Assembly (NCBI GenBank): GCA_963836755.1
Contig: CAWIKF010000002.1
Location: 1,280,001 to 1,344,000, forward strand
DNA: 64,000 nt
Source: an uncultured Verrucomicrobiae bacterium
GTDB lineage: Bacteria; Verrucomicrobiota; Verrucomicrobiia; Chthoniobacterales; Chthoniobacteraceae
Direction: 5' to 3'
The position numbers and the translations under genes are program-made. How positions within the stretch are numbered: the stretch's first letter is position 1; each line of letters starts with the position of its first letter. Below are positions 3,855 through 20,525 of this stretch, in pieces. The notes below the pieces were generated by a model, which saw only the letters and a list, made by a program, of their open reading frames with translations, did no database searches and was not told where the DNA came from.

Positions 3855-3895
3855 CCCTGAAATTCGCTCATTTCAGGGGGTATAATACCCTGAAT
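3855..3895 (+). promoter_or_regulatory. sigma70-like promoter overlapped by three CCCTGAA boxes
   Basis: TATAAT at 3881-3886; CCCTGAAAT 3855, ATTTCAGGG 3870, CCCTGAAT 3888. Confidence 0.55.
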
Positions 3896-3958: not shown

Positions 3959-4162
3959 ATGGCGAAAGCCACGCATTACTCTCCGCGCATCTCTCGCTTT
4001 CTGGTCTCCGTCCTCTATCACGAGGCGAAACGCCGCCAGATCCCGATGACCCAGCTCACTGATGAGCTGCTCCGGCAGCAACTTGAAAGTTCTGAGAGTT
4101 GGAATCAGGCGCAGGAGTGCAGGATCGCGGAGAGTCCACCATCACATCCCTCAGATTCCTGA
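3959..4162 (+). CDS. Small putative ribbon-helix-helix-like regulator
   Basis: Strong RBS AAAGGAGG; YSPRISRFLVSVLYHEAKRRQIPMTQLTDELLRQQL strand-helix-helix pattern. Confidence 0.6.
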   Translation: MAKATHYSPRISRFLVSVLYHEAKRRQIPMTQLTDELLRQQLESSESWNQAQECRIAESPPSHPSDS

Positions 4163-4188
4163 GGGGTTCATCAAACCACCGCACAATG

Positions 4189-4214
4189 ACCGGCTCTTTG
4201 TAGCCGGTTTTTTT
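4189..4214 (+). terminator. Intrinsic terminator
   Basis: ACCGGCT-loop-AGCCGGT followed by a T run. Confidence 0.7.
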
Positions 4215-4254
4215 GTGCCCACATCACAACAACACAGAAAGGAAAAACAATCCC

Positions 4255-4740
4255 ATGGCAGTATTATTGCAAATCACCTACTCAAAGAAGCTGGGTCTTC
4301 CCAACTTCAGCAGTCACAGTTGCTCGGTCAGCGTGCAGGTTGAAATCGCTGACGTATCACAGGTGGCCGAACAAAACGAGCGGCTCTACCAAGTGCTTCA
4401 GGCATCGGTCGACAAGGAAATCCAGGCGGTCGGTTATCTTCCCGACGCAACCAAATACGGAATGAACGGTCAGCAAACCAATGGCAATGGTCATCACAGG
4501 CAGAACGACGGCGCCGGCGTTAGTGAAAAGCAGCTCGATCTCATCAACAAGATCGTGCGTGAGAACAACGCCAACAAAAGCGAGGTCGAAAACCTCGCAG
4601 TTGAAATGTTTGGTGGTGGCGTTCGCACGCTCAACCGGATGCAGGCTAGTAACTTCATTGACGCGCTCTTTGAGAAATACCCGCGCAATGGCAACGGACA
4701 GCGGAGCAAATATCCGCGACAACCGGCGAGGGCATCATGA
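4255..4740 (+). CDS. Hypothetical protein translationally coupled to the nuclease
   Basis: RBS GAAAGGA; N-terminal beta-rich region, N/G linker, C-terminal SEKQ...ASNFIDAL helical motif; ATGA overlap with next gene. Confidence 0.75.
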   Translation: MAVLLQITYSKKLGLPNFSSHSCSVSVQVEIADVSQVAEQNERLYQVLQASVDKEIQAVGYLPDATKYGMNGQQTNGNGHHRQNDGAGVSEKQLDLINKIVRENNANKSEVENLAVEMFGGGVRTLNRMQASNFIDALFEKYPRNGNGQRSKYPRQPARAS

Positions 4741-5570
4741 ACGCGCTCGAGGAACCCAAAGCTGACACTGTTCAACCCGGTGCAGCAACGCCACGGAGCA
4801 TCGATGAGCTGACAAGCACGGTGTCAGCGTCACGGCTCGTATCATTCCACCAGTGTCGGCTGAAGTTCTACTTCCGCTACGTGCTGGGCCTTTTCAGGCT
4901 CAAGTCCGCGTCGTTGCACGTCGGGAGCAGCGATCACGCGGTGCTCAAATACTGGAACAACGCACGGTGGAGAGGCGAGCAGCCAACGCTCAAGCAGTTC
5001 CACGACGTTTACGTCCAGTATTGGGCCGCTGAACAACAGCAACATCCAGTGGACTGGACTAGTGAAAACCAGGAGGAAGAAAAGAAGACTGGATGGCGCT
5101 GCCTGGAAACGTATTTCCGGGAATGCCCGATCAAACCGGATGAAAAACCGGAAGCCGTGGAAGTCTCCGTGGAAGCAGATCTATTCGAGCACGGGTTGCC
5201 CAAGCTCGTCGGCATCATTGACCTGGTTCGTCCCGGAGGAAGGATCGTTGATTTCAAGACCAGCGGGAAAACACCCGATCCACTCACGGTCGCCCATCTC
5301 AACGACACACAGCTCTCCAGCTACGGGGTGCTCTATCGCCATGCCACCGGCAAAAAGGAGTCTGGCTTAGAACTGCATCACCTGGTTAAAACCAAAAATC
5401 CCAAGCTGGTGGTAACGGAACTGCCACCTGTCAACAAGGTGCAGGAAAATCGGCTCTATCACGTCATGGAATCCTACGTGGATGGGGTTCAGAAAACGGA
5501 TTGGGTGCCAAGCCCCTCGTTCTTGTGCGGCTCGTGTGAATTCTTTAGCGAGTGTCGCGCCTGGAACTGA
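4737..5570 (+). CDS. PD-(D/E)XK nuclease, RecB/Cas4-like (PDDEXK_1)
   Basis: SAS..F..C.LKFY, GIIDL, IVDFKT, QL..Y and C-terminal CxxC-x5-C. Confidence 0.9.
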   Translation: MNALEEPKADTVQPGAATPRSIDELTSTVSASRLVSFHQCRLKFYFRYVLGLFRLKSASLHVGSSDHAVLKYWNNARWRGEQPTLKQFHDVYVQYWAAEQQQHPVDWTSENQEEEKKTGWRCLETYFRECPIKPDEKPEAVEVSVEADLFEHGLPKLVGIIDLVRPGGRIVDFKTSGKTPDPLTVAHLNDTQLSSYGVLYRHATGKKESGLELHHLVKTKNPKLVVTELPPVNKVQENRLYHVMESYVDGVQKTDWVPSPSFLCGSCEFFSECRAWN

Positions 5571-5591
5571 GGCTACAAAGAAACATCAAAC

Positions 5592-5644
5592 AAAGAGAGG
5601 TCAGCTTTCACCGAAACGGTGCGAGCTGGCCTCTTTGTATTTTA
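5592..5644 (+). terminator. Long hairpin, terminator-like
   Basis: AGAGGTCAGCT...AGCTGGCCTCT followed by TTGTATTTT. Confidence 0.55.
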
Positions 5645-5663
5645 AACGAAAGGAGCTAAAGCA

Positions 5664-5912
5664 ATGAAGCAAATCATTCTCATCGTGCTCACGTTCATCG
5701 TGATCACTTCAAGGAGTCATGCTTTGTTCGGGAGAATCGCTGCGGAAAAGCAACGCAGAATCGAAACTGAACAAAAGCTGGTTCAACAACAGGCTGTCAC
5801 CGCTCAGTGGCAGACTGCTTCGTTTGTTCTCGGGGTGGGCTGCGTCGTCACATTGTTGGCTGGCGCCGCCATTGGAAGCAAAGGGAGGCGCAATGCGAAA
5901 GCAAATGAATGA
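5664..5912 (+). CDS. Small protein with signal peptide and C-terminal TM helix
   Basis: RBS GAAAGGAG; hydrophobic N-terminus ending SHA, second hydrophobic stretch. Confidence 0.7.
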   Translation: MKQIILIVLTFIVITSRSHALFGRIAAEKQRRIETEQKLVQQQAVTAQWQTASFVLGVGCVVTLLAGAAIGSKGRRNAKANE

Positions 5913-6306
5913 CGGCAAGTTTCGACTCAAGGAACTCTTCAAATCGCCGTGGAATCCGAAACCAGTGGAGCCACCCACGGTTGACCCCAACTTGCAGGAA
6001 CTCGATCCATTGACGCGGTCTGCGGAATCGATCCGCTATTCAATCCTGAGCCTCGAGTTCTGGATCTCGCCGAAAGGACAGGTGCGGGAATGGCTCAGGA
6101 GCAACGCACGGCTGGCGATTCTGCTGGCCATTCCATCGTTTCTGGTCCTGCCGATCATTACCTTTGTCCTATGGCAATTGGTCGCGTGGCTCGTCGCCCT
6201 GACTTCAATCGCGGGGAAGCTCATCATCTTCCCGATTCTGGCCCTGCTCGCAGTAGTCATGATCACCGTCACGGTCAACATCTTCAAATTCCTGTTCAGA
6301 AGTTAA
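5893..6306 (+). CDS. Membrane protein
   Basis: RBS GGGAGG; long hydrophobic C-terminal half; overlaps upstream gene. Confidence 0.7.
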   Translation: MRKQMNDGKFRLKELFKSPWNPKPVEPPTVDPNLQELDPLTRSAESIRYSILSLEFWISPKGQVREWLRSNARLAILLAIPSFLVLPIITFVLWQLVAWLVALTSIAGKLIIFPILALLAVVMITVTVNIFKFLFRS

Positions 6307-6328
6307 CCAAAGAAAGGAGGCAGATCTT

Positions 6329-7396
6329 ATGGAGCAAACAACTCTCTACTATCGCCACGGCTCCTCTGACAAAGTCTATCAGGCGAGTATTCAACAGCAG
6401 AATGGCGGCTACGTCGTCAACTTCGCTTACGGCCGACGTGGGACAACCATGCAAACCGGAACCAAAACGCAATCTCCAGTCAACCTGGAGAGCGCACGGA
6501 CTATCTACGACAAACTCATCAAGGAGAAGACGGCCAAGGGCTACACGGTTGGTGAAGATGGCGTCCCGTTTCAGCACAGTGAGAAAGCGAACGAGGTCAG
6601 CGGCATCAGTTGTCAGCTCCTCAATCCCGTCGATGAAACCGAGGCAGCAGCACTCATCCAAAATCCTGCGTTTGCCATGCAGGAAAAGTTCGACGGCCGT
6701 CGGCTGCTCATTCGTAAAACGATCGCAGGCATCGAGGGCATCAACCGCAAAGGTTTGATCGTCTCACTGCCGTGTCCACTGGTGGAGGACGCAGAAGCAT
6801 TGTCAGGGAGCTTCATCATGGACGGAGAATCCGTCGGTGAGCACTTCATGGCATTTGACCTGTTATTGATCGATCACAAGGACATCCGCAGTTGGATGTT
6901 CCGTGACCGCTGCCTGGCACTGATGAACCTGATCGCGACGGGGCTCCCAAAGGGCGTCCGGTTTGTCGAGACCGCATTTGATGCAGTATCAAAGCTGGAC
7001 CTGGTGGAACGGCTAAAGCACTCAAACAAGGAGGGCGTGGTGTTTAAAAGAACCGCTGCTCCTTACACGGCAGGCCGACCCGCATCAGGTGGAGACCAGT
7101 TCAAGTGCAAGTTCTACGAAACCGCCTCATTCATTGTTTCCAAGATCAACGGCAAGCGCAGCGTCGAGTTGAAGTTGCGCAACCAAAAAAGACTGGTCTC
7201 GGCTGGCAATGTGACAATTCCGCCCAATCAGAGGATCCCCGAAGTCGGGGCGATTGTTGAATGTCGTTACCTCTACGCATTCAAGGAATCCGGCTCTATC
7301 TATCAGCCAGTATATCTCGGCGAGCGCGACGATATTAATCCAGCGGACTGTTCAGTTACTCAGCTCAAGTTCAAGGCGGAGGTGAGCCCATGCTGA
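6329..7396 (+). CDS. WGR-domain ATP-dependent DNA ligase
   Basis: SDKVY...YGRRG...KEKTAKGY (WGR); QEKFDGRR, MDGE, AFDLL, EGVVFK; OB-fold VECRY...YQPVYLGERDD. Confidence 0.9.
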   Translation: MEQTTLYYRHGSSDKVYQASIQQQNGGYVVNFAYGRRGTTMQTGTKTQSPVNLESARTIYDKLIKEKTAKGYTVGEDGVPFQHSEKANEVSGISCQLLNPVDETEAAALIQNPAFAMQEKFDGRRLLIRKTIAGIEGINRKGLIVSLPCPLVEDAEALSGSFIMDGESVGEHFMAFDLLLIDHKDIRSWMFRDRCLALMNLIATGLPKGVRFVETAFDAVSKLDLVERLKHSNKEGVVFKRTAAPYTAGRPASGGDQFKCKFYETASFIVSKINGKRSVELKLRNQKRLVSAGNVTIPPNQRIPEVGAIVECRYLYAFKESGSIYQPVYLGERDDINPADCSVTQLKFKAEVSPC

Positions 7397-7563
7397 TCAA
7401 TAAAAAGGCGGTCAAGGATTTCGCGTTGAGCATGGCCAAGACCCGCTCCCACAAGTTTACGAGAGTGGGTGGCGGGTTCTTTGTGAAATGCGAGGCAAAC
7501 TTGAAAAGCTTCATCCGCGAGCATGTCCAGCGTCTCCCTTCCAAGGGGAAGACGATCAACTAA
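7390..7563 (+). CDS. 57-aa basic protein, putative histone fold (absent from ORF track)
   Basis: MLINKKAVKDFALSMAKTRSHKFTRVGGGFFVKCEANLKSFIREHVQRLPSKGKTIN; RBS GGAGGT; overlaps ligase stop. Confidence 0.7.
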   Translation: MLINKKAVKDFALSMAKTRSHKFTRVGGGFFVKCEANLKSFIREHVQRLPSKGKTIN

Positions 7564-7611
7564 AAACAAGCCTGTGAAAAATCTTTCATAGGCAAAACCA
7601 ACAACAAAGAG

Positions 7612-7648
7612 AGAGCCCGTATGCCAGCAATGGTGTGCGGGCTTTTTC
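7612..7648 (+). terminator. Intrinsic terminator
   Basis: AGAGCCCGTATGCCA-GCAA-TGGTGTGCGGGCTTTTT. Confidence 0.65.
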
Positions 7649-7676
7649 ATTCCAAAAAGAAAGGAGCCACACGCTC

Positions 7677-9173
7677 ATGAGTAACATCAATCTACCTGTC
7701 GCCGAGCTGAAACCAGCTCTCATTGGTCTCGGCAAAATCATCGCGAAGCGAACCACTCTGCCTGTGCTCGGCATGATCAAACTGGAGCGCACCAAGGACG
7801 GCTGGATCACATTGACTGGCACCGATCTCGAAACATTTGTCTCCGTGCGACTGGAACAACCTGCCGAAGGTGAGCCGGTTTCGATTTTGGTGGCACACGA
7901 GGATCTAAACCGCATTACCAAACGCTGCCAGAAGGAAGAGACCATCTCAGTCGAGAAGGCAAAGGTTGACAAGGCCCTCGTGAAATACCCGATCGGAAGT
8001 CAAACCGCTGAGGAACATGTCGAATCACTCGCAACGGAGGAATATCCGCCGATGCCGAGAATTAAAAGCGAACCAGTGCCACTTAGCAACGACATCCGCT
8101 CCTCGCTGCTCGATGCCTTTGAGTGCGCGAGCATTGACTCGACACGCATCATCCTCAATGGCGCTTACATCGATGTGTCGAAACCATCCTGCCATCAAAT
8201 CGTCGGAACCGACGGCCGCCATCTGTTTGCCTCCAACTCGTTTCGCCTGCCATTGGCAGAATCCCTCATCATCCCAAGCCACAAGTTTTTGGGGTGGAAG
8301 GAATTCAATAGCGACGGCGAATGGCAACTGCGAGTCCAGAAACCTGAGAACAAAAACGATCGCGGCTTGTTGCAGATCAGCAGCCGGCGCTGGCGCTTCA
8401 TCATCCATCAGATCGAAGGGATGTATCCCAACTGGCGTCAGGTGATTCCATCTCCTGACCAGTTCAACACCACGGTCGAGTTCGAAGCAGCAGCGGCCAA
8501 AGACCTGGTGCAGACGATTAGTCAACTGCCTTCGACCGACAAAATCAATCATCGCCTCGGGATTGAAGTCATTGGCCGAAAAGTCAGCTTCATCGGCCGC
8601 ACCGATGAAAAGCCAGTAAAAGTTGAAGTGATGGAAGCCGTCGCAAAGGGCAAGGATGTCATCATCTACCTCAACCGTGACTTCCTCACCAAAGCATTGA
8701 GCTTCGGTCTCTGCAGGATGCAGATCATCGATGGTCTCTCGCCGGCACGCTTCTCAGATGATGCTGGCAGAGAAATGATCGTCATGCCAATTCGCCCTGA
8801 TGGTCCGGCACAGACACCTGTCACCGCATCAAAGACCTCGGCAACACCAGCTCCAGAGCCCAACGGAAAAGGCGAAGCCGCACCCGTTCACTCTGAAGCT
8901 TCCACCTCAACAGAAAGGAGCAACATGCCAAAAGCAACAGCAGCTACAAATGGCAACGGCCACACCAACGGTCACGCCGCCGAAACCAAAGCTTCGGTTG
9001 AAACTGCCTTGGAGAAAATCGAGACGATCAGAGGTTCGTACCGTGAAGCGATTCAAGGTTTGAACGCTTTGAGCGATATTCTCAAGCAAGTGCAGCGTGA
9101 CCAGAAGACGAGCCAGAGGGAGGTTCAATCGGTTCGCTCGACATTGGAAAAACTACAGACCGTGCGCATCTAG
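7677..9173 (+). CDS. DNA polymerase III beta sliding clamp homologue with C-terminal linker and coiled coil
   Basis: RTTLPVLG, LTGTDLE, EEYP, STR.ILNG, VGTDGRHL, IEGMYPNWRQVIP, LN..FL, IVMPIR; RBS GAAAGGAG. Confidence 0.85.
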   Translation: MSNINLPVAELKPALIGLGKIIAKRTTLPVLGMIKLERTKDGWITLTGTDLETFVSVRLEQPAEGEPVSILVAHEDLNRITKRCQKEETISVEKAKVDKALVKYPIGSQTAEEHVESLATEEYPPMPRIKSEPVPLSNDIRSSLLDAFECASIDSTRIILNGAYIDVSKPSCHQIVGTDGRHLFASNSFRLPLAESLIIPSHKFLGWKEFNSDGEWQLRVQKPENKNDRGLLQISSRRWRFIIHQIEGMYPNWRQVIPSPDQFNTTVEFEAAAAKDLVQTISQLPSTDKINHRLGIEVIGRKVSFIGRTDEKPVKVEVMEAVAKGKDVIIYLNRDFLTKALSFGLCRMQIIDGLSPARFSDDAGREMIVMPIRPDGPAQTPVTASKTSATPAPEPNGKGEAAPVHSEASTSTERSNMPKATAATNGNGHTNGHAAETKASVETALEKIETIRGSYREAIQGLNALSDILKQVQRDQKTSQREVQSVRSTLEKLQTVRI

Positions 9174-9177
9174 GATG

Positions 9178-9275
9178 ATGCAGTGCAGTGCAATCCTTAA
9201 GGATGATCGCACTACTGCACTAGATCATTGTCATCGGTGCAGAGGTGCAAACAGTGCAATTGCACCGTTGCACTA
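9178..9275. repeat. Cluster of GTGCA/TGCAC short repeats in both orientations
   Basis: About nine TGCA copies in ~95 bp, palindromes ATCCTTAAGGAT and GTGCAATTGCAC. Confidence 0.7.
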
Positions 9276-9490
9276 GAACTTCAATTTCAGGCGATGAATG
9301 GGACGCAATTCTTCGTCGCTTGAAGTCATCGCAATCCTAAATGGGACGTGGGTTGTGAATACCGGAGGGGTTGGAGCCGAGCGTTACGCAGTGCTCCAGC
9401 CCCTCTCAATCTTTTGTCAATGCCTGGCTGCAAAAGCAAAAGGCCAGGCTCGTTCTCAGCAAGTAAACAACAAACCGAAAGGAGCCAATT

Positions 9491-10276
9491 ATGGTTCAAT
9501 TACTCGATCAACCGGTGGTGCCACGCAAGCACCCCAATCTCATCCTCCACTGTGGAGCCAACAAAGTGGAGCGGCGCGACGTGGAGAAGGTGCCAACGCC
9601 AAGGGCAACCTCCACATGGACACCAATCCCACACACGCAGCTCATCGCGCGGGTGGAGAAAACACTCGCTGCCAATCATCTCACTATCGGCACCTTCGCC
9701 CACAGCCTCAGTCACGACGGCGCGCGCTACTTTGGTCTCATGGAGATCCAGAATGGCGACAGCAACGAAGACTACGCATGGGTGCTCGGCTTACGAAACT
9801 CACACGACAAAACATTCCCAGCCGGCCTTGTTGCTGGGTCCTCTGTGTTCGTTTGTGACAACTTGAGTTTCAGCGGTGAAGTCAAACTCAGCCGCAAACA
9901 CACGACCTACATCGTTCGCGATTTGCCACAGCTCGTGGAGCGTGGCATCGGCCGCATGCTGGAGAAGTGGCACGATCAGCATGTTCGCTTTGACGCATAT
10001 AAAACCAAGCGCATCAATGAAACCTCAGTGCATGATCTGATCATCCGCGCCACGGATGTTGGCGTGTGCTCGAATCGGCTCATTCCTTCGGTGCTTCATC
10101 AATGGCGTGAACCGCAGTATGAGCAATTCCAGGCGAGAAACGTTTGGTCGCTATTCAATGCTTTTACCGCTGCTCTCAAGGAGCAAAGCCTCGCTGAACT
10201 CCCAAAGAGAACGGAAGCATTGCATGGGCTGCTTGATACTCATGTGGGGCTGGCGAAGAAGTTCAGCACGAGCTGA
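9491..10276 (+). CDS. DUF932-family protein
   Basis: WTPIPH, LGLRNSHDK, VFVCDNL.F, RKHT, WSLFNAFT; RBS GAAAGGAG. Confidence 0.85.
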   Translation: MVQLLDQPVVPRKHPNLILHCGANKVERRDVEKVPTPRATSTWTPIPHTQLIARVEKTLAANHLTIGTFAHSLSHDGARYFGLMEIQNGDSNEDYAWVLGLRNSHDKTFPAGLVAGSSVFVCDNLSFSGEVKLSRKHTTYIVRDLPQLVERGIGRMLEKWHDQHVRFDAYKTKRINETSVHDLIIRATDVGVCSNRLIPSVLHQWREPQYEQFQARNVWSLFNAFTAALKEQSLAELPKRTEALHGLLDTHVGLAKKFSTS

Positions 10277-10293
10277 TTTTGATTCGAAGGGGA

Positions 10294-10322
10294 GAGTTCA
10301 GACTTCGTCTGGACTCTTTTCT
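10294..10322 (+). terminator. Intrinsic terminator
   Basis: AGAGTTCAGAC-TTC-GTCTGGACTCT followed by TTTCT. Confidence 0.65.
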
Positions 10323-10413
10323 TTAGCTAGGCGGTCTGGGTGATCATGAGTCGTTCATCGAGGATTAAGTTGACTCATCGAGATCTGCCGGGATAATGAG
10401 CGTTCCCTTCCCT

Positions 10414-12655: not shown

Positions 12656-15600
12656 ATGCCTTCCCCAAAACAAACGATCCACACCATTCTCGACCAATTT
12701 CGCGAGGAAACCACCTCCAATCGCGAACTTGGTGACCGTTTCGAGCGTCTGATCTGCCGCTACCTCGAACTCGACCCGATGTATGTAGATCGCTTCTCCA
12801 GCGTATGGATGTGGAATGAGTTCCCAAAAAAAGGAAACGTCGGAGATGTGGGCATAGATATCGTGGCGGAGGAACGCGCGACCGGAGAATACTGTGCCAT
12901 CCAGTGCAAGTTCTACTGCCTGATCACACGCTCTCGAAGGGCGAATTGGATTCCTACTTCACTGCATTGGGAAATCCCCTGTTCACCAATGGCATGATTG
13001 TCTCCACGACGGATCAATGGGGATCGAATGCGGAGCACGCGGCGGCTCATCAAACAAAACAAGTTTCTCGGCTGCGCGTCCAAGACCTCGACGAAAGTCC
13101 GGTGGACTGGGCGAAGTTCGATCTCAAGCGCCCGACAGACCTCGGTCTCCGCGCCCGTAAAAAGCCAAGGCCACATCAAGACGAAGCGATTAAGGATGTG
13201 CTCGCGGGCCTTGTCATTGCCGACCGTGGCAAACTCATTATGGCTTGCGGCACGGGCAAGACGTTCACGTCACTTTGCATCGCGAAAAACTCGCGCCGAA
13301 AGGCCATATCCTTTTTCTCGTGCCGTCGCTCTCCCTGCTGTCACAGAGCTTGCGCGAATGGACTGCGGAATCCACTCGCCCGCTCCACAGCCTTGCCGTG
13401 TGCTCAGATGCGAATATTGGCAAGAAACATACAAAGACCGATGACGATAGCGCGGACATCACCACGATAGACCTGGCGTTTCCTGCTACGACCTCCGCAA
13501 AGCAGATCGTCCGTCAGTATGAGGCAGTGCAGAGCATGGCGGAGAAAAAGAAGACCCCTCCCCAGATGACAGCGGTCTTCTCCACCTATCAATCTATCGC
13601 CGCTGTTTCCGAGGCCCAAAAGGCAGGGCTACCGGACTTCGATCTCATCATCTGCGACGAAGCGCACCGCACCACGGGCGTCACGATTAGCGGCGAGGAC
13701 GAGAGCCATTTCGTGAAAGTCCACGATGCCGCCTATATTCGTGGAAAGAAGCGTCTCTACATGACGGCCACGCCGCGCATCTATGGCGATCAAGCCAAAT
13801 TGAAGGCGCAGGAAGCGGATGCCAAACTCTGCGACATGGACGATGAGGCGATGTTTGGCCAGCAACTCCACCGTCTCGGCTTCGGCGAAGCCGTCGGTAA
13901 AGAACTGCTTTCCGACTACAAGGTGCTCGTCCTCGCCGTGGACTCGGGCTACGTCTCCAAGGCGTTCCTCACCGGCGCGACGAAAGAGATACCGCTTGAG
14001 GATGCCGCCAAGATTACCGGTTGCTGGAATGGCCTCGCCAAACATCTCGACAAAGCGGCCTCTGCCGAGGGTGGCGACACCGCTGTAGATTTGCATGGCG
14101 ATAACGCGCCCATGCGCCGTGCTGTAGCCTTTTCCCGCTCCATTAAAGACTCGAAAGCCTTCACACAGCAATTTGCCCAGATCATCGACGCCTATCGCGC
14201 CTTGCACCCGGAAAAAGATAACATCCTCCGTTGTGAGCTGGATCATGTGGACGGCACCTTTGGTGCGCTCGCACGCAATGCCCGTCTGGACTGGCTCAAA
14301 GCCGACGCCGGGGAGAATACTTGTCGTATCCTTTCAAATGCCCGCTGCCTTTCTGAAGGTGTAGATGTTCCCGCGCTGGATGCGGTGCTCTTCCTCAATC
14401 CACGTAACTCTGTCATTGATGTCGTCCAGTCCGTTGGGCGCGTCATGCGTCGGGCCGAGGGAAAAAAATACGGTTACATCCTTCTTCCTATTGTTATCCC
14501 GCCGGATGTTACGCCTGAAGAGGCGCTGAAGGACAACGAACGCTACAAAGTCGTTTGGCAAGTCCTCCAAGCACTCCGCGCCCATGACGACCGCTTCAAT
14601 GCCACCGTCAACCAGATCGAGCTAAATAAAAAACGGCCCGCCAACATCCAGGTCATCGGCGTCGGCGACCCGCTGCCGAGCCTCGAAACCCACGGCGACA
14701 GCAAACCCAAAACACAGGAGACGCAGGGCACTTTTGTCTTTCCCCACTTGGAAGATTGGAAAGATGCCATCTATGCCAAGATCGTTCTTAAATGCGGAGA
14801 TCGCCGTTATTGGGAAAGCTGGGCCAAGGATGTCGCTATCATCGCCGAGCGCCACGCCACCCGCATACGGGCATTGCTCGAAAGCGGCGAGCCTCGCCAC
14901 AAATCCGCCTTTGCCGATTTCCTCGCGGGTCTTCGCCAAAATCTCAATCCTAGCATCTCTTCCGATGACGCCATTGAAATGCTTTCCCAGCACCTGATCA
15001 CGCGCCCGGTCTTCGACGCGCTTTTTGCGAACTACGAATTTACAAAGCACAACCCCGTCTCCCTGGCCATGCAGACCATGCTTGATACCTTGCATGATCA
15101 AGACTTGGAGACGGAGGTCGGGAAGCTGGAGAAATTCTATGACAGCGTCCGCGCCCGTGCTTCAAAGATAGATAACGCCGAGGCCAGACAGCGCATCGTC
15201 ATAGAACTCTATGACAAGTTCTTTAGCACCGCTTTCCCAAAAGTGAAGGAGCGCCTCGGCATCGTCTATACCCCGGTCGAGGTCGTGGACTTCATCATCC
15301 ACAGCGTCAGCGACGCCCTCCAGAGCGAGTTCGGTTCTGCGCTCGGGGACAAGGATGTCCACATCATAGACCCCTTCACCGGCACCGGCACCTTCATCGT
15401 CCGCCTTCTGCAAAGCGGCCTCATCCCCGCCGCCGACCTCCTGCGCAAATACCAGCACGAGCTGCACGCCAACGAAATCATCCTCCTCGCCTACTACATC
15501 GCCGCTATCAATATCGAGGAGACCTTCCACGGCCTCATGCGCGAGCGCGCTGCGAAGTATCCCGGCAAAAAGCCTGCCGACGCCACCAAGGCGGACAGCT

Positions 15601-17582
15601 ACATCCCCTTCGAGGGCATCGTCCTCACCGACACCTTCCAGCTCTCGGAGACAAAGGGAGAGATGGAGGAAAAAATGTTCCCCGAGAACAACCGCCGCGT
15701 GAAGCGCCAACGGCAAAGCCCCATCCGTGTCGTCACCGGCAACCCGCCCTACTCAGCCCAGCAAGAAAGCGAGAGCGACAACAACAAGAATCTTGCCTAC
15801 CCGAGCTTGGACGCTCGCATTGCCGCGACCTACGCCGAACGCTCCAATTCCAAACTGGCGAAGAACAACTACGACTCCTATATTCGCGCTCTCCGTTGGG
15901 CCAGCGACCGCATCGAGGCAAAAGGCATCGTCGCCTTCGTAACGAGTAGTTCCTTCATCTCGAAGAACAACATGGACGGCATCCGTGCCAGCTTGGTTGA
16001 TGAGTTCAGCGCCATTTACATCTTCAATCTTCGAGGTGACGCGCGGACGCAGGGCGAACAGCGACGCATGGAAAAGGGTAACGTGTTTGGCGGAGGGAGC
16101 CGCTCTGGGATCGCCATATCGCTCCTCATCAAGAACCCCGAGAAGGTAGGGAAATGCGAACTCTACTACCACGACATCGGCGACTATCTCAGCCAAGAGG
16201 AGAAGCTCGCTCTCATCCGCAACACCCAAAGCGTCAACGGTATTCACCGAGAGAAAAAGTGGTTGCGCATCCAGCCCAACGCGAGCCATGACTGGCTCAA
16301 TCAGCGAGACCCGATTTTCAGCACATTCTTACCGCTTGGCGATAAAGACGATAAAAGCACGAAAACCGTGTTTTCTACTTACTCGCTCGGTGTAGTGACC
16401 AACCGCGACACTTGGGCCTACAACACGTCGCGGGCAGCGGTTGAAGCAAACATCCAACGACTGATAGAAGCCTACAACTCAGAGCGTGCGCGTTACCGTG
16501 ATGCTTGCATCGGCAAAGGCAAAGACGAGATACCAGAAATCGAGAGCATCATCGATTCGGATCTAAAACGTATTAGCTGGACCAGGGCGCTTAAGGCGGA
16601 CGCCAAGCGCGGTAAACCCTTGGAGTTTGAAAGCCAATCGCTCACCACGAGCATGTATCGCCCGTTCGTGAAGCAATGGCTTTATTTCAACCGCCGCCTC
16701 AATGAGATGGTTTACCAGATGCCGAAACTCTTCCCCTCTGCGGCACACAGCAATATCGTCTTATCCGCGATGGGAAGCGGCGCAACGAAGGACTTCTCGG
16801 TTCTCGCGACGAGCACCTTGCCCGACCTCGAAATGATTGCGAAAGGCCAGTGCTTCTCACTTTACGTCTATGAGAAGGACGCGCCGCAAGAGGGTGAACT
16901 TATCGGCAAGCAGCAGGAGGGCGAGCTGGTGGACGGCTACCGGCGGAGGAGCGCCATCACGGATGCGATCCTCGCGGATTTCCGCAAGGCGTATGAGGCG
17001 AAGGTCACGAAGGAGGACATCTTTTACTACGTGTATGGCGTGCTGCATTCGCCGGAGTATCGGGCGCGCTTTGCCAGCGACCTGAAGAAGATGCTGCCGC
17101 GCATCCCCTACACCCGGGAGGTGGCGGACTTCTGGAAGTTCAGCAAGTCAGGCCGCGACCTCGCCGAGTGGCATTTGAATTACGAAACCGTCGAGCCGTG
17201 GCCGATCCAGGAACATTCCAACTCTTTGTCACTCGACCCCGCAAAAGACTACCTCGTGCAGCCGAAGATGAACTTTGGCCGCAAGGACAAGCAGGTGGAC
17301 AAGACGGCCATCATCTACAACAACCGCCTCACCCTCACCGGCATCCCGCTTTCCGCCTACGACTACGTGGTGAACGGCAAGCCCGCCATCGAGTGGATCA
17401 TGGAGCGTTACCAAGTGACCGTGGACAAGGACAGCGGCATCCGCAACGACCCGAACGATTGGGCGCGCGAACACCAACAGCCGCGCTACATCGTCGATTT
17501 ACTTAAGCGGTTGGTGCGGGTGAGCATGGAGACGATGAAGATCGTGAATGACTTGCCAGCGATCAACGAGCGAATTAAATGA
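12656..17582 (+). CDS. Type ISP (LlaGI/LlaBIII-like) restriction-modification enzyme, two frameshifts near 12917 and 13285
   Basis: Mrr-like DVGID..AIQCKFY; MACGTGKT, DEAH, QSVGRVMR; DPFTGTG, NPPY; C-terminal TRD with YRPF, NDPNDW. Confidence 0.9.
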
Positions 17583-19383: not shown

Positions 19384-19803
19384 TCACCTTCCCGCATAAG
19401 ATTCTGAATGCGACAGGTGCTTGTTCCAATTTGCTGTGTACTTCGCAATCAGGTCCGGCACGTTTTTCATGATGAGCAGGTTTTCAGCGTTACTATGCTC
19501 CGCCGCCTTGGTGAAATTAAACGAGCCAGTGATCAGCGTCTCCCCATCAATGATCATGATCTTGTTATGAGCTATGGCATGCTTGCCGTCAAGCCAGGTC
19601 GGGATTTTGGCATGAGCGACAAAATCAGCCGCAGCCGAATATTTGCCTGTTGTGTTGTCCTTTTTGTCCAGGATCACCTTCACATCGACCCCTCGCTTGT
19701 GGGCATCTACCAGAGCCTTGGCAATCTCGTCACTGGTGAAGGAATATGCTTGAACCAGCACCGTCTTCTTCGCCGCGTTTAGCTCGCGCACGATCGCATC
19801 TGT
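19384..19803 (-). pseudogene. PLD-family (Nuc-like) nuclease, 5'-truncated
   Basis: AYSFT, HNKIMIID, TGSFNFT..A...NAEN; lacks the FSP motif and signal region. Confidence 0.8.
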
Positions 19804-19885: not shown

Positions 19886-20074
19886 CTATCGCTGCACCGT
19901 ATTTTTCGCCAAGAACCGCTTCAGCTCGTCCACGGAGATGACGATGTGACGAAACGCGCGGCAGACCGCGATCTCCCCACTATCGATTTTTCTCCGCACA
20001 CTGCTTTCGCTGATACTCAGCATTTGCGCCGCCTGCTTTAATTTCACAGACAGCTTCCCCTCGGTATTTTGCAC
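19886..20074 (-). CDS. Excisionase-like HTH protein
   Basis: QAAQMLSISESSVRRKIDSGEI...IS..EL..FL. Confidence 0.75.
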   Translation of the reverse strand: MQNTEGKLSVKLKQAAQMLSISESSVRRKIDSGEIAVCRAFRHIVISVDELKRFLAKNTVQR

Positions 20075-20487: not shown

Positions 20488-20525
20488 CGTGTGAAGCAAG
20501 CGCTCTACCACTGAGCTAATCGCGC
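20488..20525 (-). pseudogene. 5' half of tRNA-Val(CAC), att-site remnant
   Basis: GCGCGATTAGCTCAGTGGTAGAGCGCTTGCTTCACACG; no 3' anticodon strand, T arm or acceptor strand. Confidence 0.85.

What the first reader, a model, noticed from the sequence alone, without database searches (positions are those of the whole stretch)
7390..7563. Unannotated 57-aa putative histone-fold protein between ligase and clamp
Seen: an ORF below the track cutoff, with a GGAGGT RBS and overlapping the ligase stop: MLINKKAVKDFAL-SMAKTRSHKF-TRVG-GGFFVKCEANLKSFIREHVQRL-PSKGKTIN. Known: prokaryotic histones have short helix 1, an RV(S/G) loop, long helix 2 and a (R)KT(I/V) loop, and some bacterial/phage histones have a truncated helix 3. 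Inference: a minimal helix-3-less histone carried by a mobile element, perhaps coating DNA against nucleases.
Basis: partly seen in the sequence, partly recalled or inferred. Interest (0 to 1): 0.8.

Follow-up and report, generated by a model that had tools for sequence, protein, structure and literature searches.

The report
Two-helix mini-histone on a mobile island
A mobile DNA island in a bacterial chromosome carries a real, conserved 57-amino-acid gene whose product is predicted to fold and pair like a histone although it stops before the third helix that known histones keep, and it likely bends the island's own DNA for the ligase and other DNA-handling enzymes encoded beside it.

Summary
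The ORF is real: ribosome site, purifying selection (pN<pS in 495 of 496 pairs), 896 relatives at 50% clustering, no Pfam, PHROG or NCBIfam match. A family profile hits only the histone HTkC among solved structures (E 3e-5). The AlphaFold model (two helices) ranks HTkC, HLp and HBb first. A histone-type antiparallel homodimer is predicted (0.80 against best control 0.00). The DNA-contact motifs RV and KT-hydrophobic are kept, but the chain stops about two residues later (99 of 113 locus copies): helix 3 and the R-D clamp are gone. The gene sits in a conserved exonuclease, WGR-ligase, histone, sliding-clamp operon of a 42.9-kb element integrated in tRNA-Val. It occurs in 3 of 401 genomes of the phylum and also on tailed phages. 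Ten phage-type relatives are fused to a signal-like segment plus a known or likely cell-wall hydrolase. Best reading: a dimeric, non-specific DNA bender for the element's DNA. DNA binding is untested, and nuclease shielding is less likely. This scan reported what reads as the same family three times before, on phages. New variant of a known kind; interest 0.6.

The parts
7390..7563 (+). 57-aa helix-3-less histone-fold gene (helix 1 residues 5-16, long L1 ending in RV, helix 2 residues 28-48, L2 ending in KT-hydrophobic, stop)
7378..7383 (+). Shine-Dalgarno site inside the ligase 3' end; start overlaps the ligase stop
7609..7648 (+). 18-bp RNA-type hairpin with G-U pairs followed by a U-rich stretch (terminator-like or processing/stabilising element); a 10-bp hairpin precedes it at 7570-7593
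3857..3886 (+). sigma-70-like promoter match heading the operon (consensus match only; 3 found, 3.2 expected by chance)
3959..4162 (+). 67-aa small protein, weak CcdA-like hit (E 0.016, below cut-off); found in 8 related loci
4255..4740 (+). conserved protein of no known family; found in 21 related loci
4737..5570 (+). PD-(D/E)XK exonuclease (PF12705; PHROG exonuclease)
5664..6306 (+). two small hydrophobic ORFs (5664-5912, 5890-6306), variably present in relatives
6329..7396 (+). WGR domain + ATP-dependent DNA ligase
7677..9173 (+). beta sliding-clamp-like protein with C-terminal extension
9491..10276 (+). DUF932 protein
19886..20074 (-). HTH_17 excisionase-like gene near the right end of the element
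20488..20525 (.). right att copy: 38-bp direct repeat of the 5' part of tRNA-Val(CAC); the left copy lies upstream of the window at G000:C2:1257551-1257588, next to the integrase

Best explanation
The ORF is a conserved gene of a tRNA-integrated mobile element, and its product is predicted to be a two-helix histone-fold homodimer that likely binds and bends DNA without sequence preference for the element's own DNA-processing operon. Shown from sequence: the gene, its conservation, its place in the element, the retained L1 RV and L2 KT-hydrophobic motifs, and the absence of helix 3 and of the R-D clamp. Predicted by models: the fold and the antiparallel handshake dimer. Inferred: DNA is gripped by the paired L1-L2 loops (R25, K54, T55) and the basic start of helix 1 (K5, K9); without helix 3 the known nucleosomal and face-to-face tetramer contacts cannot form, so it would act as an HBb/HU-like bender. 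It would be made with the exonuclease, ligase and clamp when the element excises or enters a host, probably in excess because a strong hairpin closes the gene, and would shape element DNA so that ends are joined, recombined and replicated.
For: The profile of 132 relatives matches only HTkC (9F2C) among 177,635 PDB sequences, E 3.4e-5. AlphaFold pLDDT 95. VIA-align top three: HTkC Z 5.9, rmsd 1.9, 52 aligned; HLp 5.6, 2.1, 50; HBb 5.5, 1.9, 51; the first 24 rows are histones or histone-fold complexes by entry title. The 10 best named Atlas clusters share the PF00808 family or clan, at scores 0.85-0.87, a lead only. Homo-oligomer score 0.80 against best control 0.00 (mark reached by 20 of 30 solved pairs and 1 of 23 single chains; runs agree in at least 88% of contacts; pLDDT at least 84), with contacts 38-38, 41-34, 45-30 and 42-11/12, and with L1 and L2 in the interface. 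R25 98%, V26 95%, T55 100%, I/L56 98%, K/R9 98% over 132 sequences; pI 10.8. These are the motifs named as the histone DNA-binding signature in PMC13260811 (section read). Ligase directly upstream in 31 of 34 and clamp downstream in 30 of 35 related genome loci with enough flank. HBb promotes ligase-mediated circularisation. In phages the family often lies near recombination genes (RecT, Erf, Sak4, exonucleases), and it fills the same slot as an HTH domain in DNA-binder + signal + hydrolase fusions.
Against: No binding, expression or phenotype data. Z values are under 8, where the tool warns of common helical arrangements, and the dimer pass may reflect likeness to solved histone dimers. The ligase link is confined to one clade: the two other histone hits in the phylum sample have no ligase or clamp nearby, three other genomes hold the WGR-ligase with neither histone nor clamp downstream, and only 2 of 91 viral and metagenome loci show the ligase. 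The synteny count is biased to close relatives. Loss of the R-D clamp, which holds L2 in its DNA-binding shape in other histones, could weaken or change binding.
Confidence: 0.5

Rival explanations
1. It coats the element's or phage's DNA densely, like the Bd0055 nucleohistone filament, and shields it from host nucleases.
For: Strongly basic (13 K+R against 3 D+E). One Bd0055 structure encases straight DNA (PMC10627809, passage). The family is patchy (3 of 401 genomes) and tied to mobile DNA.
Against: The same protein (HBb/Bd0055) gave no MNase protection and behaved as a bender (PMC11317129). The element carries its own type ISP restriction-modification enzyme and a GmrSD-like pair.
Confidence: 0.2
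2. The fold is used mainly as a protein-protein module, as in TAFs or NC2, binding the element's clamp or ligase or a host protein, with DNA contact secondary.
For: TAF4, TFIID and NC2 chains rank among the structural matches. A family-specific, highly conserved L1 insertion (R19 95%, F23 96%) and P50-S51 (98%, 96%) are not in HTkC. Tight linkage to ligase and clamp in one clade.
Against: Most contexts have no clamp or ligase, while the DNA-contact residues are the best conserved positions.
Confidence: 0.13
3. It is a regulator that reshapes or silences promoter DNA, of the element's early operon or of the host, rather than an aid to recombination and ligation.
For: In phages it lies in arrays of small early-type genes near integrases and HTH genes, and it is interchangeable with an excisionase-type HTH in hydrolase fusions.
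Against: No sequence-reading element is evident. HBb and HLp bind non-specifically (PMC11317129, PMC12701072).
Confidence: 0.1
4. It poisons a host histone by forming mixed dimers that lack helix 3.
For: A helix-3-less partner would break tetramer contacts (inference from the interfaces in PMC11390915 and PMC12701072).
Against: No PF00808 histone was found in this 96%-complete host genome, and only one copy of the family is present.
Confidence: 0.05

Closest known systems
HTkC of Thermococcus kodakarensis (PDB 9F2C) and HLp of Leptospira perolatii (9QT0): face-to-face alpha3-truncated histones (PMC11390915, PMC12701072)
   Same: Only sequence match among solved structures (E 3.4e-5) and best fold matches; short helix 1, RV(S/G) loop, shortened helix 2, G-x-K-T end; about the same size.
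   Different: No helix-3 turn, no RxTxxxxD motif and no R-D clamp; the clamp arginine is deleted in the profile alignment. L1 is about 5-6 residues longer (RxHKF). Helix 2 is capped by an almost invariant Pro-Ser. No tetramer interface was listed. Mobile, not chromosomal.
HBb/Bd0055 of Bdellovibrio bacteriovorus (PDB 8CMP), 'bacterial dimer' histone and its viral look-alikes (BBVH)
   Same: Predicted dimer without confident higher assembly; KT motif in L2; third fold match (Z 5.5, rmsd 1.9, 51 aligned). Probably works like it, as a bender.
   Different: HBb keeps one turn of helix 3 and the R51-D58 clamp; 12% identity; HBb is a chromosomal chromatin protein.
'Phage histones' (PMC11390915) and viral VTTH, VHHH, VFFH, VKH clusters (PMC13681535)
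   Same: Alpha3-type histone folds in tailed phages; phage histones also lack RxTxxxxD.
   Different: Those carry a C-terminal tetramerisation helix, a tail or a KOW domain, or keep the helix-3 turn. This family ends after KT-hydrophobic, and its motifs were not found in the readable alignment file of PMC13681535.
Integrative elements with tyrosine integrase and prim-pol/D5 primase-helicase (PICI- or IME-like islands; label from my own knowledge)
   Same: att repeat in a tRNA gene, integrase, P4-family primase, excisionase-like HTH, defence cargo.
   Different: 42.9 kb, with an exonuclease-ligase-histone-clamp-DUF932 operon; no capsid, terminase or conjugation family among the 43 element ORFs scanned against Pfam.

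Membership tests
Histone-fold superfamily | helix 1 - L1 - long helix 2 - L2 arrangement homologous to histones | tested here: met
   profile hit to HTkC E 3.4e-5; helices 5-16 and 28-48; first 24 VIA rows histone-fold entries, best Z 5.9, rmsd 1.9, 52 aligned
Histone-fold superfamily | antiparallel handshake dimer with paired L1-L2 | tested here: met
   predicted only: 0.80 against best control 0.00, contacts 38-38, 41-34, 45-30, 42-11/12; may be from likeness to solved dimers
Histone-fold superfamily | L1 RV motif and L2 (R)KT-hydrophobic motif | tested here: met
   R25 98%, V26 95%, K54 82%, T55 100%, I/L56 98% of 132; the leading R of RKT is absent
Histone-fold superfamily | third helix and R-D clamp | tested here: not met
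   99 of 113 distinct locus copies with a real stop end within 2 residues of the Thr; 324 of 356 proteins likewise, and Asp at +4/+5 in 2 of 356
Histone-fold superfamily | binds DNA | not testable with these tools
   needs EMSA or a structure with DNA
Face-to-face (FtF) alpha3 histones | RxTxxxxD motif, conserved R/N dimer-dimer residues and 3-4-residue helix 3 | tested here: not met
   against the definition read
Face-to-face (FtF) alpha3 histones | torus-shaped homotetramer | tested here: inconclusive
   four copies were folded; the confident interface listed joins two copies only
Bacterial dimer histones (HBb/Bd0055) | RKTxxxD motif with one turn of helix 3 | tested here: not met
Phage histones / VTTH | C-terminal helical tetramerisation domain | tested here: not met
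   chain ends after L2
The 17 categories of PMC11390915 | match to the published category HMMs | not testable with these tools
   the readable source-data file lists accessions and scores, not sequences or HMMs
Pfam PF00808 CBFD_NFYB_HMF | score over the curated cut-off | tested here: not met
   no hit for the query or among the 25 families listed for 132 members; own genome 0 hits

The most novel reading that the evidence does not exclude
A large, uncatalogued family of true two-helix histones, the smallest histone fold so far and the first without helix 3 and the R-D clamp, lives only on phages and integrative elements. It organises incoming mobile DNA for joining and recombination. Phages have repeatedly grafted it onto exported cell-wall hydrolases, where the DNA-binding dimer could tether or time the export of the enzyme.
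Probability: 0.35. Interest if true: 0.8.

Novelty: new variant of a known kind. Interest (0 to 1): 0.6.

Why it matters
A 2026 survey (PMC13260811) describes the R-D clamp as strongly conserved even where helix 3 is rudimentary. This family drops both while keeping the DNA-contact loops, so it is a natural test of the minimum histone needed to dimerise and bind DNA. It is large (896 clusters at 50% identity), is missed by Pfam, PHROGs and NCBIfam, and was seen here only on mobile DNA. It would add a histone to the early toolkit of phages and islands, and at 57 residues it is easy to make and assay. The repeated fusion to exported cell-wall hydrolases is an architecture I did not find in print.

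Tried and rejected
No hit: single-sequence PDB search, Foldseek against PDB and BFVD (57 residues is short for it), Pfam, PHROGs, NCBIfam and PADLOC for the query. No match in GenBank phages for relative P0144 or in PLSDB plasmids for the query. The tandem double P0167 did not fold as a confident pseudo-dimer (pTM 0.48); its second half again matched HTkC (Z 5.7) and its first half gave generic helical hits, so it is inconclusive. No RNA holder was listed; DNA contigs of two runs covered parts only. RNAalifold on a misregistered alignment of 21 hairpins gave no consensus, and Rfam gave one chance-level hit, so covariation is untested; the z-scores are on hand-picked windows and only one search is unbiased. 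Rejected: chance ORF; core chromatin protein of the host (3 of 401 genomes); real ligase-histone fusion (P0176, P0376, P0379 look like frameshift read-throughs of the overlapping genes). The tree of 214 cores of 58 residues is weakly resolved and was not used to claim an order of events. Literature searches that found no description of this family; DUF932 searches gave no function in the listing. Subscription papers are not covered. Supplement files that could not be read (MOESM1 and the picture-only MOESM3 of PMC11390915; mmc1 and mmc4 of PMC13681535) may hold members.

Full report
OBSERVATION. The ORF is at 7390-7563(+), 57 aa, as quoted. GGAGGT (7378-7383) lies 6 nt before the ATG, which overlaps the ligase stop (7394-7396). 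It is a real gene. All 130 candidates of a single-sequence search scored E<=0.01. A profile of 120 close relatives found 896 of 1.84 billion 50%-identity representatives at E<=0.001, 183 at E<=1e-10. A broader profile gave 2,386 hits among 5,435 candidates. Over 38 indel-free codons in 32 copies, pN<pS in 495 of 496 pairs. The query has no Pfam, PHROG, NCBIfam or PADLOC match, and no family was matched by more than 1 of 132 members. The nearest ESM Atlas clusters (0.96) are unnamed and 75-90% viral.

FOLD. The single sequence found nothing among solved structures. The close profile gave HTkC (9F2C) at E 0.039 and the 132-sequence profile at E 3.4e-5, the only match among 177,635 sequences. AlphaFold2 gives two helices, 5-16 and 28-48, mean pLDDT 95. 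Against 48,161 solved chains, VIA-align ranks HTkC (Z 5.9, rmsd 1.9, 52 aligned), HLp (5.6, 2.1, 50) and HBb (5.5, 1.9, 51) first. The first 24 rows are histones or histone-fold complexes by title (which TFIID or SAGA chain is a histone fold is my knowledge). Z is under 8, so this counts through the uniformity of the list and its agreement with the sequence hit. Foldseek found nothing. Four copies folded together scored 0.80 against a best control of 0.00; the mark was reached by 20 of 30 solved pairs and 1 of 23 single chains, runs agreed in at least 88% of contacts, pLDDT at least 84. The listed interface joins two copies, with helix 2 crossing antiparallel (38-38, 41-34, 45-30), helix 1 packing on the partner's helix 2 (11/12-42), and both loops included. 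That is handshake geometry. The pass may come from likeness to solved histone dimers, and no tetramer contact was listed.

WHAT IS KEPT AND LOST. PMC13260811 (section 10 read) names the L1 RV motif, the L2 RKT-hydrophobic motif and the R-D clamp as histone signatures, the clamp holding even where helix 3 is rudimentary. Over 132 sequences R25 is 98%, V26 95%, K54 82%, T55 100%, I/L56 98% and K/R9 98% conserved; the protein has 13 K+R against 3 D+E, pI 10.8. The chain then stops. Of 356 proteins with the L2 motif (of 375 held), 324 end within 2 residues of the Thr and 2 have Asp at the clamp position. Of 113 distinct copies with a stop read from DNA, 99 end within 2 residues. The clamp arginine is deleted too. 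Family-specific features are a 5-6-residue longer helix 1/L1 with R19 (95%) and F23 (96%), and P50-S51-x-G53 (98, 96, 99%) capping helix 2. So it fails the motif tests for face-to-face, bacterial-dimer and phage histones as defined in PMC11390915 (sections 6, 7 and passages read), while it probably works like the dimeric ones.

CONTEXT. The gene lies in a 42.9-kb element bounded by a 38-bp direct repeat of the 5' part of tRNA-Val(CAC) (G000:C2:1257551-1257588 and window 20488-20525); GC is 52% against 58% for the genome. A tyrosine integrase and a prim-pol/D5 P4-type primase lie at the left end and an HTH_17 gene at the right. Cargo includes a type ISP restriction-modification enzyme and a GmrSD-like + HEPN pair. 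None of 43 element ORFs scanned against Pfam hit a capsid, terminase or conjugation family. The operon at 3959-10276 runs: small protein, unknown conserved protein, PD-(D/E)XK exonuclease, two hydrophobic ORFs, WGR-ligase, histone, beta-clamp, DUF932. Among 37 GTDB loci, mostly titled Verrucomicrobiota (hence the likely host phylum), the ligase is directly upstream in 31 of 34 with enough flank and the clamp downstream in 30 of 35. These loci were found with patterns from close relatives, so the count describes one clade. In an even sample of the phylum the family is in 3 of 401 genomes, this one included, and the host has one copy and no PF00808 histone. Against an obligate partnership: the two other hits have no ligase or clamp nearby, and three other genomes carry the WGR-ligase without histone or clamp in the 1.3-5 kb read downstream. 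A stem of 12 bp or more lies within 128 nt after the stop in 20 of 33 copies on the coding strand, 2 of 33 on the opposite strand, 0 of 28 coding controls and 0 of 660 shuffles, with G-U pairs and a U-rich tail. That points to an RNA-level signal; a terminator or processing site raising histone output over the clamp is inferred.

PHAGE MEMBERS AND FUSIONS. Fifteen IMG/VR loci and 76 metagenome loci were fetched. In the subset of neighbours scanned against PHROGs (118 and 66 proteins), terminases lie near the gene in L008, L009, L010, L012 and L059, integrases in L008, L009, L012, L014 and L052, and recombination pairs in L142 (RecT + exonuclease), L154 (Sak4 + exonuclease) and L059 (Erf + exonuclease). 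Many other neighbours are small and unknown. By tblastn with the window's genes, 10 of 91 such loci hold the exonuclease, 3 DUF932 and 2 the ligase. Ten relatives run on after KT into a hydrophobic stretch (best 11-residue mean 2.3-2.9 for the nine proteins scored) and a further domain: Hydrolase_2 (P0151, P0153, P0257), DPBB (P0181, P0389), SLT (P0248) and Peptidase_M15 (P0384) by Pfam. P0388 (50% identical to P0151), P0385 and L059:8001-8672 had no family hit and are assigned by likeness only. They come from the best 150 rows, the 56 hits. The five looked up are single-member clusters, two seen on 3 and 6 contigs. L108 shows the unfused state: histone stop overlapping the start of a hydrophobic-leader hydrolase. 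L014 has an excisionase-type HTH in the same slot before a transglycosylase. The fusions are scattered on a weak tree. No signal-peptide predictor was run.

MECHANISM. Best reading (0.5 overall; fold about 0.95, DNA binding about 0.8): a homodimeric, non-specific DNA bender serving the element's DNA during excision, entry and repair. HBb, the nearest dimeric model, bends DNA, gives no MNase protection and promotes ligase-mediated circularisation (PMC11317129, section 21 and passages), which suits a gene coupled to a ligase. HLp needs the end of helix 2, L2 and helix 3 to tetramerise and wrap (PMC12701072, abstract and sections 6, 7, 9), contacts this protein lacks. Rivals are nuclease shielding (0.2; one Bd0055 structure encases DNA, PMC10627809 passages), protein adaptor (0.13), regulator (0.1) and host-histone poison (0.05).

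NOVELTY. Seven searches found no description of this family. The viral survey (bioRxiv 10.1101/2024.12.06.627149, parts 1-3 of 5 read; PMC13681535 supplements searched) describes six clusters with other architectures, and its alignment file lacks the family's motifs, though gaps could split them. The published category HMMs could not be tested. Three earlier AI notes of this scan describe what reads as the same family on phages; I reached my reading before seeing them, and they are not independent support. Added here are the integrative-element operon, the hairpin after the gene and the hydrolase fusions. Verdict: new variant of a known kind, interest 0.6.

Noticed in passing
L059:8001-8672; P0151, P0153, P0181, P0248, P0257, P0384, P0385, P0388, P0389: Histone domain fused to a hydrophobic signal-like segment and a cell-wall hydrolase of at least four Pfam families; unfused neighbour state in L108; an HTH in the same slot in L014:4978-5592.
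   Followed up: partly
window 4188-4209, about 5594-5636, 7570-7593, 7609-7648, 9170-9490, about 10286-10325: Long near-perfect hairpins in most spacers of the operon, several followed by U-rich tails and a ribosome site; five stacked hairpins lie between the clamp and DUF932 genes.
   Followed up: partly
L054:16961-17365 (-), about 3 kb upstream of the window: 134-aa very basic protein with repeated ARWA motifs, no Pfam or NCBIfam hit, also in L024 and L033; a possible second nucleoid-type protein of the same element.
   Followed up: no
P0167: Tandem double of the two-helix histone in one 140-aa chain; the model did not give a confident pseudo-dimer.
   Followed up: partly
window 4255-4740: Conserved protein of no known family next to the exonuclease in 21 related loci; unnamed Atlas clusters of Verrucomicrobiota and phages; could be the annealing partner, untested.
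   Followed up: partly
window 12656-17582: Type ISP restriction-modification gene is split over three overlapping frames (12656, 12904, 13245); possibly frameshifted.
   Followed up: no
window about 19384-19803: A 420-bp stretch holding the PLD-like nuclease gene has a 98.8% identical copy at G000:C2:401148-401567.
   Followed up: no
L029, L046, L031, L051, L052: tRNA genes (Gly, Thr, Glu) lie within 10 kb of the histone gene in these relatives, possibly other integration sites.
   Followed up: no
L054:7000-14800: Run of short, co-oriented, mostly signal-peptide-like unknown ORFs in the element, resembling a gene-cassette array.
   Followed up: no
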